NCBI GenBank assembly: GCA_009729775.1
Contig: GCA_009729775.1_4081.1
From: Escherichia coli
GTDB lineage: Bacteria; Pseudomonadota; Gammaproteobacteria; Enterobacterales; Enterobacteriaceae
Length of the DNA: 64,000 nt
Strand: one strand, 5' to 3'
Shown: positions 56,136 through 64,000 of the stretch, in pieces
Layout: each line of letters begins with the position of its first letter
How positions within the stretch are numbered: the stretch's first letter is position 1
The notes under the pieces: model-generated
The model's database searches: none
Told to the model about the DNA's origin: nothing
The model's input: the letters and a program-made list of their open reading frames with translations, nothing else
Position numbers and translations under genes: made by a program

Positions 56136-57284
56136 ATGTTACCTTTTGCAAGAATGATGAATTACGGGAATATTGCCCCTGGTGATGATGGACGTTTTAA
56201 AATATATTCCAGTGATTCCATGTATCTTCATGATACTTATACTGATAAGTTGTATGCATCTTCTGCGACGAATTGGGGTACTGGAACAGGTGTAGCATCG
56301 AGTAAATTTATTCTTTGTGCGGAGAATGTTAAACGAGTTCTATTGGAAGATAACAGTAGTGATTGTCAATTGTACGAAGAGAAAGGTACGGGAAAAGTTT
56401 TTATCACTGGCAACACGAAGGCATTCACTGGTGTAACTGATAGAAAAACTTTGTGGACGGAATGTACTACGTGGATAACATCAGGTGGTATTAATGTTTC
56501 TGATATAAAATACATGAGTAGTTTTAATGATATGAAGGTAAATTTGATAACAAACGATGGTACATTGTATTGTTGTGGAGCTAACAATAACTCTAACCTA
56601 TCATCATTTGGTGATGGTACAAACATTAATTCTTTTAACACATTCAAAAGGGTAGATACTATAACTTCGGTTAAAAAGGCAGTTGGTAACATATACCTAA
56701 AAGAAGATAATACTTTATGGGGTTGTGGTTTTAACTATTACTATCAGTTAGGTACAGGCAATCAAACTTCTATTACTGGGGTGACGATGATTGCTTCGGA
56801 TGTTATAGATTTTGATGTAAGTTATCAGAGTACATTTTTTATTAAATCAGATAATAATTTGTACGCATGTGGTAAACAGTTCGGTGCACAATACGGGAAC
56901 GAATTTGGCACAGGTGGTACTTCTTCATCTACAGATATACAATACAAAACTCCAACATTATTGAGTTCAGGAGTTTATACTTTATATACTTGTGTTAGTA
57001 ACATGGCATCTCATATTGTCAAAAAAGATGAAGTTATGTATGCATCTGGTTCGAATGGGTTTGGTCAATTAGGTGTTGGTAATAATATTAATCAGTACTC
57101 CTATACTCCTTCGTATACTTCTTTTAATAGTTCGTGTGATTTGGTACGCAGTCCATCTGGATCACTTATACTTACGGATACTGGAAAATTATATTATTGT
57201 GGCCCTGCAATATTAGTAATGGGGGGAATTGCTGGACAAAACATTCTTAGTTATACAGAAGTAGATATGTCATTTATACAATGA
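56136..57284 (+). CDS. RCC1-like repeat (beta-propeller) protein, MLPFARM paralog 1
   Basis: start at MLPFARMMNYGNI; repeated Y.[CS]G.N..GQLG.G motifs. Confidence 0.75.
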   Translation: MLPFARMMNYGNIAPGDDGRFKIYSSDSMYLHDTYTDKLYASSATNWGTGTGVASSKFILCAENVKRVLLEDNSSDCQLYEEKGTGKVFITGNTKAFTGVTDRKTLWTECTTWITSGGINVSDIKYMSSFNDMKVNLITNDGTLYCCGANNNSNLSSFGDGTNINSFNTFKRVDTITSVKKAVGNIYLKEDNTLWGCGFNYYYQLGTGNQTSITGVTMIASDVIDFDVSYQSTFFIKSDNNLYACGKQFGAQYGNEFGTGGTSSSTDIQYKTPTLLSSGVYTLYTCVSNMASHIVKKDEVMYASGSNGFGQLGVGNNINQYSYTPSYTSFNSSCDLVRSPSGSLILTDTGKLYYCGPAILVMGGIAGQNILSYTEVDMSFIQ

Positions 57285-57292
57285 ATTAATAT

Positions 57293-57320
57293 GCCAGTAC
57301 TTGATACTGGCTTTTCTTAT
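57293..57320 (+). terminator. rho-independent terminator
   Basis: GCCAGTA-cttga-TACTGGC hairpin then T-tract. Confidence 0.6.
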
Positions 57321-57357
57321 TGTATTAAATATAGTATAATGAATAAAGGAGGGAATT
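57321..57357 (+). promoter_or_regulatory. conserved -10-like element TATAGTATAAT and AAAGGAGG RBS, no recognisable -35
   Basis: identical cassette precedes every RCC1-like paralog. Confidence 0.45.
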
Positions 57358-58467
57358 ATGTTACCTTTTGCAAGGATGGTTAAGTACGGAAATATTGTAC
57401 CTGGTCCTAAAAATATAATTAAAGTTGGTGCTTCTACACAAGGACAATTCTTATTGACTGATTCACATGATTTATATTACATAGGTAGAAATCAAGGTGG
57501 TGAATCTGGAAATGGTAATACCAACACGGTATCTTCATGGATATTAGTAAGTGCAGATGTTTCTAATTTTTTCGTGGGTGATCGTACACTTGTTATTATT
57601 AAAAATGATAATACGATATGGACATCAGGTCAAACGTACTGGTTCTCATCTTCTACAACTACTTCTTACAGTACTGTATTAGTTGAAAGAACTAATTGGT
57701 TTACCAATGCTATACCAGTAAGTGAAATTGCTAATATTGTATGTACAAATGGTTTAATATTTGTACTTAGCACTAATTCAGTACTCTATGGTGCAGGAGA
57801 TAATGGATATCGTGGTTCTTTGGGTATTGGTTCCTCATCAATTTACACATTAACTCAATGTGCTACGAACGTTCGTAAAGTAATGACCAATGCGAATGAT
57901 AGTATGTATCTTACATTAGATAATAAGCTATATAGTTCTGGATGGAATAGTAGTGGGCAGCATGGTACGGGGAACCAAACACAAATTAACACTTGGGGAT
58001 TGCGTAGTTCTGGTGTAATCGATGCAGCCATTGGTGGTAATGCATTAAATTACTATAATGGTACATCATATTTCGTATGTGGTCAAACTCCAAACTTTCT
58101 TAGTTCAGGTACGACTACATTCCGTGCAGTTCCTGTAAGTACCTTGCCTAATAGTTCTCCATTGTTTATGACGAATTCACCTGCCTTAAATACTGCTACA
58201 CAAATGGTAATTACTAGTACATATCAGAAGGGTGTTGGGGCGAACCGTGGTTTGGGATTAAACAATTCCCAAACTGGTGCTATATATAGTGCTACCAATT
58301 TACAATTACCCGTTGAAGTTAGTGAGATTAGGGATGTTCTTTTTAGTGATGGTTTGACATCGTTATTAACCAAAAATGGAGATGTGTATAGTACTGGATC
58401 GTATTACGCCATTCCAGGTGCAATCGAGGATGTTGCAGTCTTTACTAAAATTGATTTACCAAAATAA
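57358..58467 (+). CDS. RCC1-like repeat protein, MLPFARM paralog 2
   Basis: MLPFARMVKYGNIVPG; RCC1-like repeats. Confidence 0.75.
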   Translation: MLPFARMVKYGNIVPGPKNIIKVGASTQGQFLLTDSHDLYYIGRNQGGESGNGNTNTVSSWILVSADVSNFFVGDRTLVIIKNDNTIWTSGQTYWFSSSTTTSYSTVLVERTNWFTNAIPVSEIANIVCTNGLIFVLSTNSVLYGAGDNGYRGSLGIGSSSIYTLTQCATNVRKVMTNANDSMYLTLDNKLYSSGWNSSGQHGTGNQTQINTWGLRSSGVIDAAIGGNALNYYNGTSYFVCGQTPNFLSSGTTTFRAVPVSTLPNSSPLFMTNSPALNTATQMVITSTYQKGVGANRGLGLNNSQTGAIYSATNLQLPVEVSEIRDVLFSDGLTSLLTKNGDVYSTGSYYAIPGAIEDVAVFTKIDLPK

Positions 58468-58473
58468 CATAAT

Positions 58474-58503
58474 GCCAGTACTTGATACTGGCTTTTATTT
58501 TTT
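58474..58503 (+). terminator. rho-independent terminator
   Basis: GCCAGTA-cttga-TACTGGC then TTTTATTTTTT. Confidence 0.6.
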
Positions 58504-58537
58504 GATTAAATATAGTATAATGAATAAAGGAGGAATT

Positions 58538-62220: not shown

Positions 62221-62226
62221 ACACAA

Positions 62227-62256
62227 TGCCAGTACTCTGTACTGGCTTTCTTATTT
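62227..62256 (+). terminator. rho-independent terminator
   Basis: GCCAGTAC-tct-GTACTGGC then T-rich. Confidence 0.55.
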
Positions 62257-62291
62257 GTATTAAATATAGTATAATGAATAAGGAGGGAATT

Positions 62292-63443
62292 ATGTTACCT
62301 TTTGCAAGAATGATTCAGTACGGGAATATTAAACCTGTTCCTGTAACACCAACGATAAAAGATTTTAAGATTGGTTTTTCCCATGAAGTGTTATTGGACA
62401 GTGCAGGTGATGTGTGGGGTATTGGATATAATACCGCTGGTCAGTTGGGATTTCTGGATGCTAACACAAATTCAATAGGAATGTGGTCTAAGATATATGA
62501 GAATGTTAGATTAATTGGCGTTACTTCCAATTATACAGTTGTAGTTACAAATAATAATAGAATACTTTACGCTGGAAATAACTTAATTTCTAATACTACA
62601 ACGTTTGGGTGGAACGATATAACGTCTAGTATGGGAGCGGTTGTAGTGGATAGCATCGATGCATTATATTGCACAGATGGCATGATGCATATTAAAACTG
62701 CTGATGGTTCTTTATACGCATATGGACGTAATATGAACGCAAACGCTGGAGTTACTGGTGTTTCTGGAGTTATTAGTGTTGCAACTAAAGTTAGTGGTTT
62801 ACCATCGGCTGTGAAAGATATACGATATACGTTTAGTTATGGTACAGTACTATGTCAATTAGATACCACCTCGGTATATGGATGGGGAAGAAATGTCAAT
62901 GGTGAATTAGGTCAGGGGAACGCAGCCGCAGTTCCTACCCCATCCCAAAGGGCGGGTGCTTCTATTGCTATAGGTACTTCGTATAATGCTACTGCAATTG
63001 TTTCCGGTACTGCATCGTTGGTTACATGTGGTGGACAAAATGATGGTCAGTTAGGTAATGGTATTACTACTGCTGGTAATGTATACACATATGGTGCTAG
63101 AGCATACCCAAGCGATCTTAATAATATAAGAAGTCCAGTGGATTGCAGTACAACTTATACATCTGCATTTATGAGTCCAGATGGCATATATTACACGGGT
63201 TCGAACCGAAGTGTTTTTGGTGGTCAGAGCGGGGCTGCCACTGTTGCATTATATACCAAATGTAGTGATTTACCAATATTATATTCTAATATAACACAGT
63301 GGTGTAGTGGTACTATTGGTGGTGCGATATGTAGCAGTACTGAATTATATCAGTGTGGGACCGGTAGATACATTGCCGGAGATGGGCAGAACGCAACTAG
63401 GTATGGGTTTAGAAAGACACCATTACCTTGGGATGTTTATTGA
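62292..63443 (+). CDS. RCC1-like repeat protein, MLPFARM paralog 6
   Basis: start at MLPFARMIQYGNIKPVP; GQLG repeats. Confidence 0.75.
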   Translation: MLPFARMIQYGNIKPVPVTPTIKDFKIGFSHEVLLDSAGDVWGIGYNTAGQLGFLDANTNSIGMWSKIYENVRLIGVTSNYTVVVTNNNRILYAGNNLISNTTTFGWNDITSSMGAVVVDSIDALYCTDGMMHIKTADGSLYAYGRNMNANAGVTGVSGVISVATKVSGLPSAVKDIRYTFSYGTVLCQLDTTSVYGWGRNVNGELGQGNAAAVPTPSQRAGASIAIGTSYNATAIVSGTASLVTCGGQNDGQLGNGITTAGNVYTYGARAYPSDLNNIRSPVDCSTTYTSAFMSPDGIYYTGSNRSVFGGQSGAATVALYTKCSDLPILYSNITQWCSGTIGGAICSSTELYQCGTGRYIAGDGQNATRYGFRKTPLPWDVY

Positions 63444-63449
63444 CATAAA

Positions 63450-63480
63450 GCCAGTACTTGAGTACTGGCATTTCTTTTTG
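63450..63480 (+). terminator. rho-independent terminator
   Basis: CCAGTACT-tg-AGTACTGG then TTTCTTTTT. Confidence 0.55.
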
Positions 63481-63515
63481 TATTAAATATAGTATAATGA
63501 ATAAAGGAGGAATTT

Positions 63516-64000
63516 ATGTTACCTTTTGCAAGAATGGTTAATTACGGGAATGTTAAACCAGCACCTTCGGGTGTACTGAAGATTGCTACATCTACAACAC
63601 ATGTGGGTATGTTGTTCGATAGTGGCAATTTATATCTACGTGGTAATGGTGCACAATATAGGCTAGGAAATGATAGTACTGCGTATTTACAAAATGGATG
63701 GATACAGTGTCCATATAAAGTTGCTAATGTTTGGTGTTTATCCGCAGGGACCATTATACTTACGACTGAAGGAGAATTTTACTTAGCAGGACAAATGGGA
63801 TACCTTGGTGTGGTTAAATCGCCTGTTCCAGGATGGACAAATATTACATCAATATTGTCTACAATACCAAGCCTTACTACAGTTCAAGATATAGCTTCTA
63901 CTGAGACTGTCGCTTCAAATGGTACTTTATTAATTATGTTAAGCAATGGTGATTTATACGGGATAGGTAGTAATACTGGAGGTGAACTGGGTGTTTCTGG
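63516..64000 (+). CDS. RCC1-like repeat protein, MLPFARM paralog 7 (3' end beyond window)
   Basis: ATG at 63516 after conserved cassette; MLPFARMVNYGNVKPAP, open to window end. Confidence 0.65.
   Translation, partial: MLPFARMVNYGNVKPAPSGVLKIATSTTHVGMLFDSGNLYLRGNGAQYRLGNDSTAYLQNGWIQCPYKVANVWCLSAGTIILTTEGEFYLAGQMGYLGVVKSPVPGWTNITSILSTIPSLTTVQDIASTETVASNGTLLIMLSNGDLYGIGSNTGGELGVS

What the first reader, a model, noticed from the sequence alone, without database searches (positions are those of the whole stretch)
56136..64000. Tandem array of at least seven RCC1-like beta-propeller paralogs with a conserved N-terminal anchor
Seven plus-strand genes of about 370-400 aa each start with MLPFARM[MVI][NKQ]YGN[IV] and contain several RCC1-type repeats (Y.[CS]G.N..GQLG.G). 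Each gene has its own terminator hairpin, a conserved TATAAT element and a strong AAAGGAGG RBS. The shared N-terminus with divergent propeller bodies resembles sets of receptor-binding or decoration proteins that attach through a common adaptor; that role is inference. The array continues beyond the window.
Basis: partly seen in the sequence, partly recalled or inferred. Interest (0 to 1): 0.85.

Follow-up and report, generated by a model that had tools for sequence, protein, structure and literature searches.

The report
Tagged virion binding-module gene array
This stretch of an E. coli jumbo phage genome holds a known row of propeller-shaped protein genes that are mislabelled "DNA condensation" proteins; they all start with the same 12-residue tag, which across related giant phages marks several unrelated binding proteins that end up in the virus particle.

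Summary
Seven + strand genes start with MLPF[AG]RM..YGN: five are intact, one is frameshifted and one is cut by the window end. All are RCC1-type; a seven-bladed propeller was modelled for one. Six conserved junction cassettes separate them (terminator hairpin, TATAAT-like element, strong RBS).

The window is an Asteriusvirus-type coliphage (PBECO4/121Q/phAPEC6/JP4/UB group). The array is already annotated and discussed in the literature, and published mass spectrometry found 8 of 11 phAPEC6 paralogs in virions. These include near-identical orthologs of three window genes.

I found no prior description of the following in the papers searched:
- The 12-residue tag lies outside the fold in both AlphaFold models.
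- Its amino acids are conserved while its codons vary.
- It occurs across the Rak2-like jumbo clade on at least four body types: RCC1 propeller, Kelch propeller, LamG lectin-like and glycine-rich.
- 7 of 9 tagged, non-RCC1 proteins of phage CBB are virion proteins by mass spectrometry.
- Cassette order and content differ between close relatives, with breakpoints at the junctions.

Best reading (about 0.5): interchangeable binding modules tethered to a shared virion site by the tag. Main rival: packaged and ejected internal proteins. The "DNA condensation" label is unsupported.

The parts
56105..56135 (+). Promoter-like element (TAAATATGATATAAT, 56105-56119) and RBS AAGGAGGG (56124-56131) in front of gene 1. 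There is no terminator hairpin because this is the array start. A CCAGTACTGAA motif lies at 56067-56077.
56136..57284 (+). Gene 1 (cassette type A), 382 aa, tag MLPFARMMNYGN plus an RCC1-like propeller. It is 94.8% identical at the amino-acid level to phAPEC6 gp549, which was detected in virions by MS.
57285..57357 (+). Junction cassette 1: hairpin 57293-57311, T-run, TAAATATAGTATAAT 57326-57340, RBS.
57358..58467 (+). Gene 2 (type B), 369 aa, tag MLPFARMVKYGN plus an RCC1-like propeller.
58468..58537 (+). Junction cassette 2: hairpin 58474-58492, promoter-like element 58507-58521, RBS.
58538..59725 (+). Gene 3 (type E), 395 aa, tag MLPFARMVKYGN plus an RCC1-like propeller. It is 100% identical at the amino-acid level to the phage UB copy.
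59711..59777 (+). Junction cassette 3: hairpin 59711-59735 (overlaps the stop codon of gene 3), promoter-like element 59747-59761, RBS.
59778..60968 (+). Gene 4 (type C), 396 aa, tag MLPFARMMNYGN plus an RCC1-like propeller.
60969..61040 (+). Junction cassette 4: hairpin 60975-60995, promoter-like element 61009-61023 (TATAAC variant), RBS.
61041..62220 (+). Gene 5 (type K), disrupted. A tagged 59-aa fragment (MLPFGRMMNYGN...) ends at the stop codon TAG at 61218-61220. The cause is a 1-nt insertion just after the T6 run, relative to the intact 392-aa Turkey5 ortholog. The propeller body continues in the +1 frame to 62220.
62221..62291 (+). Junction cassette 5: hairpin 62228-62246, promoter-like element 62261-62275, RBS.
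62292..63443 (+). Gene 6 (type D), 383 aa, tag MLPFARMIQYGN, Pro-rich linker, then a seven-bladed RCC1-like propeller in the AlphaFold model (pLDDT 90.5). It is 96.9% identical at the amino-acid level to phAPEC6 gp005, which was detected in virions by MS.
63444..63515 (+). Junction cassette 6: hairpin 63450-63469, promoter-like element 63484-63498, RBS.
63516..64000 (+). Gene 7 (type V, the same type as 121Q cassette O), first 161 aa only because it is cut by the window end. Tag MLPFARMVNYGN. It is 99.4% identical at the amino-acid level to phAPEC6 gp006 (391 aa), which was detected in virions by MS.

Best explanation
The array is a cassette store of small binding modules that are built into the phage particle. 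Each protein has three parts:
- a 12-residue N-terminal address tag, M-[L/I]-P-F-x-[R/I]-[I/M]-x-x-Y-G-N;
- a short proline-rich linker;
- a compact beta-rich binding domain. In this window every body is RCC1-type, and gene 6 models as a seven-bladed propeller.

I infer that the tag docks as a linear peptide onto one shared site on a virion protein. Many different modules would then compete for the same sites and be displayed as accessory adhesins or decorations.

Each cassette has its own terminator hairpin, promoter-like element and RBS. These roughly 70-nt junctions, together with the tag-coding DNA, act as homology patches that let cassettes be gained, lost and reordered between related phages.

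Shown here or in the literature: the fold, the tag and its conservation, the cassette anatomy, the shuffling, and the virion association of orthologs and of other tagged proteins.

Inferred only: docking by the tag, surface exposure, and a ligand or host-surface binding function.
For: Fold:
- Pfam RCC1/RCC1_2 repeats score above cut-off in five of the six scanned proteins.
- The AlphaFold model of gene 6 has pLDDT 90.5 and pTM 0.87.
- Foldseek matches it to UVR8, RPGR, HERC and RCC1 propellers at E = 3e-21 and TM about 0.75.

The tag lies outside the fold:
- Residues 1-12 have pLDDT below 50 in the propeller model.
- Residues 1-7 have pLDDT below 50 in the model of a tagged glycine-rich protein with an unrelated fold.

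The tag is selected as a peptide:
- The six other window paralogs are only 20-26% identical to gene 6 over their length, yet the tags are nearly identical.
- Among 111 distinct tagged N-termini, Y10, G11 and N12 are conserved although they were not part of the search pattern.
- Synonymous codons vary at conserved positions: P3 is CCT 54 / CCA 48, and Y10 is TAT 42 / TAC 54.

The tag is independent of the body:
- It sits on Gly_rich_2, Laminin_G_3, Kelch and phrog_6011 bodies in 121Q, JP4, Munch, GAP32, BF and CBB and on uncultivated jumbo contigs.
- Homologous bodies in other phage lineages lack this tag or carry a different N-terminus.
- A degenerate DNA scan of IMG/VR found the tag only on jumbo-phage contigs. 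In 121Q every match lies inside the array.

Virion incorporation:
- In phAPEC6, 8 RCC1-like paralogs were detected by MS. They include orthologs of window genes 1, 6 and 7.
- GAP32 gp001 was detected in virions by MS. The adjacent tagged gp002 is annotated as a virion structural protein.
- In CBB, 7 of 9 tagged proteins were detected, against 55 of 554 proteins overall (P = 2e-6).

Binding-module character:
- Charged residues make up 9-15% of these proteins, against 24.8 +/- 3.5% in 68 other window ORFs. S/T/N/G make up 38-42%, against 22%.
- RCC1-like propellers occur in annotated tail-fibre proteins of other phages.
- The best solved match of the glycine-rich body is a cyanophage fibre, but the match is weak.

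The genes are functional: dN/dS between orthologous cassettes is 0.16-0.27.

Shuffling:
- Cassette order is A B E C K D V in the window, U B H A C K D E J G in PBECO4, A B E C R I D S T F P J Q in JP4 and A M B H C I N D O F L G in 121Q.
- Homology breakpoints fall at the hairpin, or at the RBS/ATG.
Against: - No experiment locates these proteins on the virion surface or identifies a docking partner.
- MS peptide counts in phAPEC6 are low (1-5 unique peptides), so the proteins are minor components. Carry-over contamination cannot be formally excluded for the weakest ones.
- The array lies far from the structural gene module, among small early-type genes on the opposite strand.
- The promoter-like element has no recognisable -35 hexamer, and I could not establish expression timing.
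- Known phage anchors are folded domains of 100 aa or more, not 12-residue peptides.
- Propeller and lectin-like folds also serve as intracellular protein binders, so the fold does not fix the location.
- Cryo-EM of phAPEC6 did not assign any density to these proteins.
Confidence: 0.5

Rival explanations
1. Packaged and ejected internal proteins. In this reading the tag is a capsid- or tail-lumen-targeting signal, like the capsid targeting sequence of T4 internal proteins or the N-terminal packing signals of contractile-injection-system cargo. The modules would be loaded inside the particle and delivered into the cell with the DNA. There the propeller, Kelch and LamG binders would neutralise host proteins such as defence nucleases.
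For: - A short conserved N-terminal peptide on otherwise unrelated proteins, in a variable multi-gene locus, is exactly the T4 internal-protein pattern (PMC3012670).
- The proteins are virion-associated at low copy number.
- phAPEC6 has an inner body of unassigned composition, and its authors proposed these proteins as candidates.
- The array sits in an early-type or hyperplastic genome region.
- RCC1-like and Kelch propellers are classic protein-protein interaction modules (established knowledge).
Against: - There is no conserved Glu, or any other conserved cleavage-type residue, in the first 20 positions. T4 and phiKZ-type prohead proteases cut after Glu (own knowledge).
- The proteins are near-neutral and poor in charged residues, with a net charge of -9 to +7. 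That is unlike the DNA-embedded T4 internal proteins.
- Lectin-like LamG bodies, glycine-rich bodies and a proline-rich tether fit an exposed position better.
- RCC1-like domains occur in annotated tail fibres.
Confidence: 0.27
2. DNA condensation or chromosome-organising proteins, as the database names imply. In this reading the propellers bind and order the 350-kb genome in the head or in the infected cell.
For: The only support is the name inherited from eukaryotic RCC1, plus the suggestion in PMC7247149 that they might help order the packaged DNA. They are present in virions.
Against: - RCC1's chromatin role depends on Ran and nucleosomes, which bacteria and phages lack (established knowledge).
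- The proteins have a net charge near zero and only 9-15% charged residues.
- The same tag and locus carry Kelch, LamG and glycine-rich bodies, which have no link to DNA.
- CBB has no RCC1 homolog at all, yet packages a genome of similar size.
- Cassette content differs freely between close relatives, which is unlike a core packaging function.
Confidence: 0.04
3. Non-structural accessory proteins whose detection in virions is incidental. In this reading the N-terminal identity is a by-product of recombination and gene conversion at the junction cassette, or of selection on the translation-initiation region, rather than a peptide function.
For: - Within the window the first 21 nt are almost identical, including at synonymous sites.
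- Recombination breakpoints fall in or next to this region.
- MS peptide counts are low in phAPEC6.
Against: - Across genera the codons differ while the residues are kept.
- Y10, G11 and N12 are conserved in arrays that lack the hairpin/promoter cassette, for example the translationally coupled genes in Munch, CBB and PBECO4 U-B-H.
- Enrichment of tagged proteins in two independent virion proteomes has P of about 2e-6 each.
- MS coverage reaches 50.7% for CBB_549.
Confidence: 0.1

Closest known systems
RCC1-like gene arrays annotated in Asteriusvirus and other Rak2-like jumbo phages (PBECO4 gp286-296, 121Q gp234-248, phAPEC6 gp549-010; 'regulator of chromosome condensation' / 'DNA condensation protein')
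   Same: It is the same locus. Individual window cassettes are 84-100% identical in nucleotides to copies in these phages. The array was noted as multi-copy in PMC5259590 and as eleven paralogs, partly in the virion proteome, in PMC7247149.
   Different: The published descriptions stop at the Pfam name and a DNA-ordering suggestion. I found neither the shared tag, nor its presence on non-RCC1 bodies, nor the cassette junctions and shuffling described in the papers searched.
T2/T6-type gp38 adhesins of T-even phages
   Same: gp38 is a separate small protein of about 260 aa. Its conserved N-terminal part attaches it non-covalently to a virion fibre, and its variable C-terminal part determines binding. 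It has glycine-rich motifs, and N-terminal subtypes match the partner (PMC3157838). One tagged body type here is a 245-aa glycine-rich protein.
   Different: - gp38's attachment region is a domain, not a 12-residue peptide.
- There is one gp38 gene per phage, next to the fibre gene, rather than 10-13 paralogs in a remote array.
- No sequence similarity to any solved chain was detected for the glycine-rich body.
T4 internal proteins with the capsid targeting sequence (CTS)
   Same: A roughly 10-residue conserved N-terminal peptide is the only shared feature of a diverse, fast-evolving set of virion-packaged proteins (PMC3012670).
   Different: The CTS is removed by the prohead protease after a Glu, and the internal proteins are small and highly charged. 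Here there is no conserved Glu, and the bodies are 22-43 kDa, near-neutral binding folds.
PeSL (promoter-early stem-loop) cassettes of T4-type phages
   Same: These are composite intergenic elements with a stem-loop, promoter and Shine-Dalgarno sequence. They flank variable genes and serve as recombination points for insertion, deletion and replacement between close relatives (PMC2839356, PMC4122927). The junctions here have the same parts and the same association with cassette turnover.
   Different: PeSLs carry a full sigma-70-type promoter with a -35 box and flank unrelated ORFans. Here there is no recognisable -35, the conserved patch extends into the coding tag, and the cassette is specific to this array within the window.
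RCC1-like propeller domains in phage tail-fibre proteins (for example Pseudomonas phages PollyC and Littlefix in BFVD) and bacterial secreted RCC1-repeat proteins
   Same: They have the same fold (Foldseek E about 1e-15, TM 0.66-0.67). Some bacterial homologs carry Big-type or T9SS sorting domains, which indicates extracellular binding roles.
   Different: In those proteins the propeller is covalently part of a long fibre of 860-1360 aa. Here it is a free-standing protein of about 40 kDa with a peptide tag.

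Membership tests
RCC1-like repeat (RLD) beta-propeller superfamily | RCC1 / RCC1_2 sequence repeats scoring above Pfam gathering cut-offs | tested here: met
   Five of the six scanned proteins pass PF00415 and/or PF13540, for example gene 1 with RCC1_2 at 46.5 bits against 22 and RCC1 at 37.5 against 21.7. Gene 4 has only a sub-threshold RCC1_2 hit (18.9 against 22). The whole-domain model PF25390 hits all six at 54-101 bits, below its cut-off of 150. A family profile matches UVR8 at E = 1e-52.
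RCC1-like repeat (RLD) beta-propeller superfamily | Seven-bladed propeller fold | tested here: met
   The AlphaFold model of gene 6 has pLDDT 90.5 and 27 strands. The top PDB matches are UVR8, RPGR-RLD, HERC RLDs and RCC1, with TM 0.64-0.76. Only one paralog was modelled.
Eukaryotic RCC1 function (Ran guanine-exchange factor, chromatin binding, 'chromosome condensation') | Ran and nucleosome partners; basic chromatin-binding elements | tested here: not met
   No partner exists in the host (established knowledge). The proteins have a net charge of -6 to +3 and 9-15% charged residues. Biochemical activity cannot be tested with these tools.
T4-type PeSL recombination cassettes | Stem-loop plus Shine-Dalgarno in the intergenic space of variable genes | tested here: met
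   Six hairpins with z-scores of -3.2 to -4.4, followed by AAAGGAGG.
T4-type PeSL recombination cassettes | Complete sigma-70-like early promoter (-35 and -10) | tested here: inconclusive
   A TATAAT is conserved, but the consensus scan reports no good -35 at the junctions and promoter-like sites are not enriched overall (38 found, 44 expected). Expression timing is unknown.
T4-type PeSL recombination cassettes | Indels or replacements between close relatives with breakpoints in the element | tested here: met
   Cassette orders differ among four phages. Homology around cassette B begins at the hairpin, or at the RBS/ATG.
T4 internal proteins / capsid targeting sequence | Short conserved N-terminal peptide on otherwise unrelated virion proteins | tested here: met
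   MS data.
T4 internal proteins / capsid targeting sequence | Removal of the peptide by the prohead protease at a conserved Glu site; location inside the head; ejection | tested here: inconclusive
   No conserved Glu occurs in positions 1-20 of 111 tags, which argues against a T4-type site. Cleavage, location and ejection cannot be tested with these tools.
Detachable phage adhesins / receptor-binding proteins with N-terminal attachment region (gp38-type, tailspike anchor modules) | Virion component with a conserved N-terminal attachment part and a variable binding part | tested here: met
   Sequence anatomy; virion presence from the literature.
Detachable phage adhesins / receptor-binding proteins with N-terminal attachment region (gp38-type, tailspike anchor modules) | Demonstrated attachment to a fibre or baseplate partner, and control of adsorption or host range | not testable with these tools
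   No partner has been identified, and no genetic or adsorption data were found in the papers searched.
Detachable phage adhesins / receptor-binding proteins with N-terminal attachment region (gp38-type, tailspike anchor modules) | Attachment region is a folded domain encoded next to the partner gene | tested here: not met
   The tag is 12 residues and is predicted to be disordered. The array lies among small early-type genes, not in the structural module.

The most novel reading that the evidence does not exclude
Rak2-like jumbo phages may use a universal 12-residue N-terminal 'address peptide' as a plug-in system. Any small binding domain that acquires the tag (RCC1 or Kelch propeller, LamG lectin fold, glycine-rich domain) would be loaded onto one common docking site of the virion. 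Each particle would then display a mixed, rapidly reshuffled set of accessory adhesins drawn from a cassette array. That would be a combinatorial host-surface recognition layer distinct from the tail fibres, and a ready-made peptide tag for decorating jumbo-phage virions with foreign proteins.
Probability: 0.4. Interest if true: 0.75.

Novelty: new variant of a known kind. Interest (0 to 1): 0.55.

Why it matters
- **Annotation.** Dozens of jumbo-phage genomes carry these genes under the label "DNA condensation" or "regulator of chromosome condensation", which the evidence here does not support.
- **Unexplained virion proteins.** If the tag is a virion address, it explains why a tenth or more of the minor virion proteins of phAPEC6, GAP32 and CBB are small propeller or lectin-like proteins encoded far from the structural module.
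- **A concrete search target.** It points to a docking partner that might relate to the unassigned decorations and "hairy" appendages of these phages.
- **Host range.** It offers a testable route by which therapeutic jumbo coliphages could vary surface binding through cassette exchange.
- **Engineering.** It suggests a short peptide handle for loading cargo onto or into large phage particles, as the T4 capsid targeting sequence has been used.

Tried and rejected
- **Velcro strand.** I tested whether the N-terminus is simply the closure strand of the propeller. It is not: residues 1-12 are low-confidence and lie outside the fold, and the first strand starts at residue 22.
- **Gene conversion only.** I tested whether the tag's identity is only DNA-level gene conversion. 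I rejected this as the sole cause, because codons vary while residues are kept across genera.
- **Whiskers.** I considered whether the RCC1-likes are the whisker or hair proteins. This is unlikely, because CBB has whiskers but no RCC1 homolog.
- **Variability of the array.** I tested whether the array is uniquely variable compared with its neighbours. It is not: a control 8-kb segment upstream is also mosaic, with 47-94% coverage in the listed relatives.
- **Homolog search.** The word-indexed search with one paralog returned only 19 hits and missed the other paralogs.
- **IMG/VR exact-DNA scan.** The exact tag DNA found only the 121Q genome. The degenerate pattern was needed.
- **MS supplements.** Those of the phAPEC6 and JP4 papers were not available as text, so N-terminal peptide coverage could not be checked.
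- **Glycine-rich body.** A sequence search against the PDB found nothing. The fold search gave only a weak hit to the cyanophage Pam3 fibre (TM 0.29).
- **PVP-SE1.** The context of its glycine-rich homolog, next to the DNA polymerase gene, was uninformative.
- **Whole-genome tag scan of phAPEC6.** I abandoned it after 66 kb, which contained no tag outside the array, in favour of the IMG/VR scan.
- **Promoter class.** It could not be assigned, because the motif occurs only in the array within this window.

Full report
**What is in the window**

A back-translated pattern for MLPFARM matches seven times, all on the + strand, at 56136, 57358, 58538, 59778, 61041, 62292 and 63516. About 0.01 matches are expected by chance.

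The six proteins that could be scanned all match RCC1-type Pfam models. Five pass the gathering cut-off for RCC1 and/or RCC1_2 repeats. Gene 4 has only a sub-threshold RCC1_2 hit, and the whole-domain model is below its cut-off for all six.

Between consecutive genes lies a conserved cassette of about 70 nt. It has four parts:
- a hairpin GCCAGTACT...(A)GTACTGG[C/T], with a folding energy of -10 to -13.5 kcal/mol and z-scores of -3.2 to -4.4;
- a T-rich run;
- the element TAAATATAGTATAAT;
- AAAGGAGG, 6-8 nt before the ATG.

- Gene 5 is disrupted. Its tagged reading frame stops after 59 codons, and the propeller continues in the +1 frame.
- Gene 7 is cut by the window end.
- Gene 1 has no upstream hairpin because it opens the array.
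- One -10-like element reads TATAAC.

The rest of the window (1-56000) holds only small minus-strand ORFs. The array is therefore a + strand island.

**Where it comes from and what is already known**

The region is 84-100% identical, cassette by cassette, to Escherichia jumbo phages of the genus Asteriusvirus: PBECO4, 121Q, phAPEC6, JP4, UB, SHEFM2K and others. In PBECO4 the same island is annotated as ten "regulator of chromosome condensation" genes. 121Q has 12-13 units and JP4 has 13.

The literature already notes the array:
- The CBB paper lists the multiple copies in 121Q and PBECO4 and states that GAP32 gp001, an RCC1-like protein, is a virion protein by mass spectrometry (PMC5259590).
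- The phAPEC6 paper counts eleven RCC1-like proteins, reports eight of them in the virion proteome at 1-5 unique peptides each, and suggests a role in ordering the packaged DNA (PMC7247149).
- A Vequintavirinae phage, W70, has three tandem proteins of the same PHROG (phrog_4219) in its virion, at 141-233 spectra (PMC11370258).

As an array of RCC1-like paralogs the finding is therefore not new. Window genes 1, 6 and 7 are 94.8%, 96.9% and 99.4% identical at the amino-acid level to phAPEC6 gp549, gp005 and gp006. All three are on the published virion list.

**Anatomy of one protein**

An AlphaFold model of gene 6 is confident (pLDDT 90.5, pTM 0.87). It shows a propeller of 27 strands starting at residue 22. 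The best solved matches are UVR8, the RPGR and HERC RCC1-like domains, and RCC1 itself, with E down to 3e-21 and TM about 0.75.

The conserved first 12 residues have pLDDT below 50 and lie outside the propeller. They are followed by a proline-rich stretch.

The six other window paralogs are only 20-26% identical to gene 6 over their length, while the tags are nearly identical.

Orthologous cassettes in different phages evolve under purifying selection, with dN/dS of 0.16-0.27. These are working genes, and the diversity comes from old paralogs being reshuffled.

**The tag is the conserved unit, not the propeller**

This is the main result beyond the literature I could search.

In 121Q, JP4 and phAPEC6 the array contains a 245-aa gene with the same tag (MLPFGRMVKYGN) but a glycine-rich body. 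It has no RCC1 signal and belongs to a different PHROG.

Looking further afield, every gene of the 12-gene array of Salmonella phage Munch starts MIPF.[RK]..Y[GA]N (one of the twelve has a GTG start that reads as V). The array includes a Gly_rich_2 protein, a Laminin_G_3 protein and a phrog_6011 "virion structural protein". Other examples:
- GAP32 gp001 (RCC1-like) and its neighbour gp002 (phrog_6011) both carry the tag.
- Serratia phage BF gp372 carries it, while the BF RCC1-like genes use a variant, MLPFPIIS.
- Xanthomonas phage XaC1 uses MFPIPIIS.YGN.

A degenerate DNA pattern for the tag, run against IMG/VR, matched 16 stretches. All lie on contigs of 350-378 kb, plus one 109-kb fragment. 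In 121Q every match lies inside the array.

The tagged ORFs on these contigs include Kelch propellers (up to 113 bits against a cut-off of 50) and Laminin_G_3 domains (48 bits against 27.6).

Across 111 distinct tagged N-termini the consensus is M1 [L/I]2 P3 F4 x5 [R/I]6 [I/M]7 x8 x9 Y10 G11 N12, with prolines common at positions 15 and 17. Positions 10-12 were not part of the search pattern, so their conservation is an independent observation. Synonymous codons vary at the conserved residues, which means the selection acts on the peptide.

Homologs of the glycine-rich body and of the phrog_6011 body in other phage lineages lack this tag or carry a different N-terminus.

A second AlphaFold model, of the glycine-rich protein (pLDDT 91.3), again leaves the tag disordered.

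**Tag and virion incorporation**

The 378-kb IMG/VR contig is Pectobacterium phage CBB. Nine adjacent or nearby CBB genes (536, 537 and 548-554) all start MLPF..., with Kelch, LamG or phrog_6011 bodies.

Seven of the nine are in the published CBB virion proteome, with 2-8 peptides and up to 50.7% coverage. The background rate is 55 of 554 proteins, giving a hypergeometric P of 2e-6. The phAPEC6 figure, 8 of 11 against 62 of 551, gives the same order.

Tagged proteins with four different body types are therefore virion components in CBB, phAPEC6 and GAP32.

**Cassette dynamics**

I labelled bodies by similarity at 80% nucleotide identity or more. The orders are:

| Phage | Cassette order |
|---|---|
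| window | A B E C K D V |
| PBECO4 | U B H A C K D E J G |
| JP4 | A B E C R I D S T F P J Q |
| 121Q | A M B H C I N D O F L G |

Cassette K is present in 12 of 34 related genomes. In the others only the junction and tag match.

Around cassette B, which follows A, M or U in different phages, homology begins exactly at the hairpin. In PBECO4, where the genes abut, it begins at the RBS/ATG.

This is the behaviour described for PeSL elements in T4-type phages (PMC2839356, PMC4122927). The differences are that no -35 box is evident here and that the conserved patch runs into the coding tag.

Several cassettes are broken in one phage or another: K here and in PBECO4 and Ecwhy_1, O and G in 121Q, and F truncated.

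**Interpretation**

The proteins have very few charged residues, 9-15% against 24.8 +/- 3.5% for 68 other ORFs of the window. They are rich in S/T/N/G and carry almost no net charge. This argues against a DNA-condensing role. So does the fact that CBB lacks RCC1 homologs altogether, and that the locus freely mixes folds with no connection to DNA.

All body types are binding folds. RCC1-like propellers occur inside annotated tail-fibre proteins of other phages. LamG-like domains match segments of large virion and baseplate PHROGs. The best solved match of the glycine-rich body is a cyanophage fibre, although that match is weak (E = 1.3e-3, TM 0.29).

I therefore favour tethered, exchangeable binding modules on the particle, attached through the tag. 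The closest functional analogy is the detachable gp38 adhesin of T2/T6 (PMC3157838).

The main rival is a T4-type capsid targeting signal for packaged, ejected proteins (PMC3012670). The short-tag-plus-diverse-body pattern and the genome location fit that reading. The lack of a conserved Glu cleavage site, the neutral composition and the lectin-like bodies fit it less well.

Neither location nor partner is shown, so my confidence in the favoured model is about 0.5.

**Verdict**

The array itself is already known and annotated. The "chromosome condensation" name is not supported by the evidence here. The clade-wide, fold-independent N-terminal tag that tracks with virion incorporation appears undescribed in the papers searched, and it is directly testable.

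Noticed in passing
whole window, for example 36041-36048, 41188-41195, 44349-44356, 52526-52533, 56068-56075, 60985-60992: The 8-nt palindrome CAGTACTG occurs 60 times in 64 kb, against 0.8 expected. It is the most over-represented 8-mer in the window, and AGTACT occurs 253 times. It lies inside ORFs, in the spacer of sigma-70-like promoters (TTGACA...CAGTACTGTATAAT), and as half-sites in the array's terminator hairpins. It is also enriched in loci from 121Q, PBECO4, JP4, phAPEC6, CBB and other jumbo contigs, and absent from a PVP-SE1 locus. I have no explanation for it; a protein binding site or a modification target are possibilities.
   Followed up: partly
window 51300-53160: About 1.9 kb has no credible ORF, and the GC skew changes sign there. 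It contains 11 CAGTACTG copies, a 16-nt tandem repeat (52045-52105) and several strong sigma-70-like promoters. There is no Rfam match and no tRNA. PBECO4 and 121Q leave the equivalent roughly 2 kb unannotated. It may be a divergent regulatory region or an origin.
   Followed up: partly
window 53165-56033, minus strand: About a dozen small ORFs of 59-81 aa lie in tandem directly upstream of the RCC1 array, on the opposite strand. In 121Q and JP4 the equivalent run is much longer. [quoted passage not shown] I did not check how similar these ORFs are to each other.
   Followed up: no
window 61041-62220 (frameshift just after the T6 run, stop codon at 61218-61220): Gene 5's frameshift is a 1-nt insertion after a T6 run, relative to the intact Turkey5 ortholog. 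PBECO4 and Ecwhy_1 share it. The downstream 999-nt ORF is still open in all three, with dN/dS of 0.18-0.32. The sequence UUU UUU AGA UAG could in principle allow +1 frameshifting. Whether this is a recent pseudogene or a gene that is still expressed is unresolved.
   Followed up: partly
L011 (phAPEC6 MK817115) 2434-3540 and 6063-8060: The deposited phAPEC6 record leaves intact tagged genes unannotated: orthologs of window genes 2 and 4, and the 244-aa glycine-rich gene. It also appears to duplicate gp550/gp551 across the record start.
   Followed up: no
tag position 5 in the window and in loci L001, L002, L005: Position 5 of the tag switches among A, G, V, T, P, S and R between otherwise identical tags, while the flanking positions are fixed. 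The same body type can carry different residues at this position in different phages, for example type B with A in the window and G in PBECO4 and JP4.
   Followed up: no
proteins P0024-P0054, P0080 and P0112 (homologs of the glycine-rich body in other large phages): Outside the Rak2-like clade, these roughly 250-aa Gly_rich_2 proteins share a different short N-terminal motif (MLELL / MIELM / MFEMM). Other phage lineages may therefore have their own address tags.
   Followed up: no
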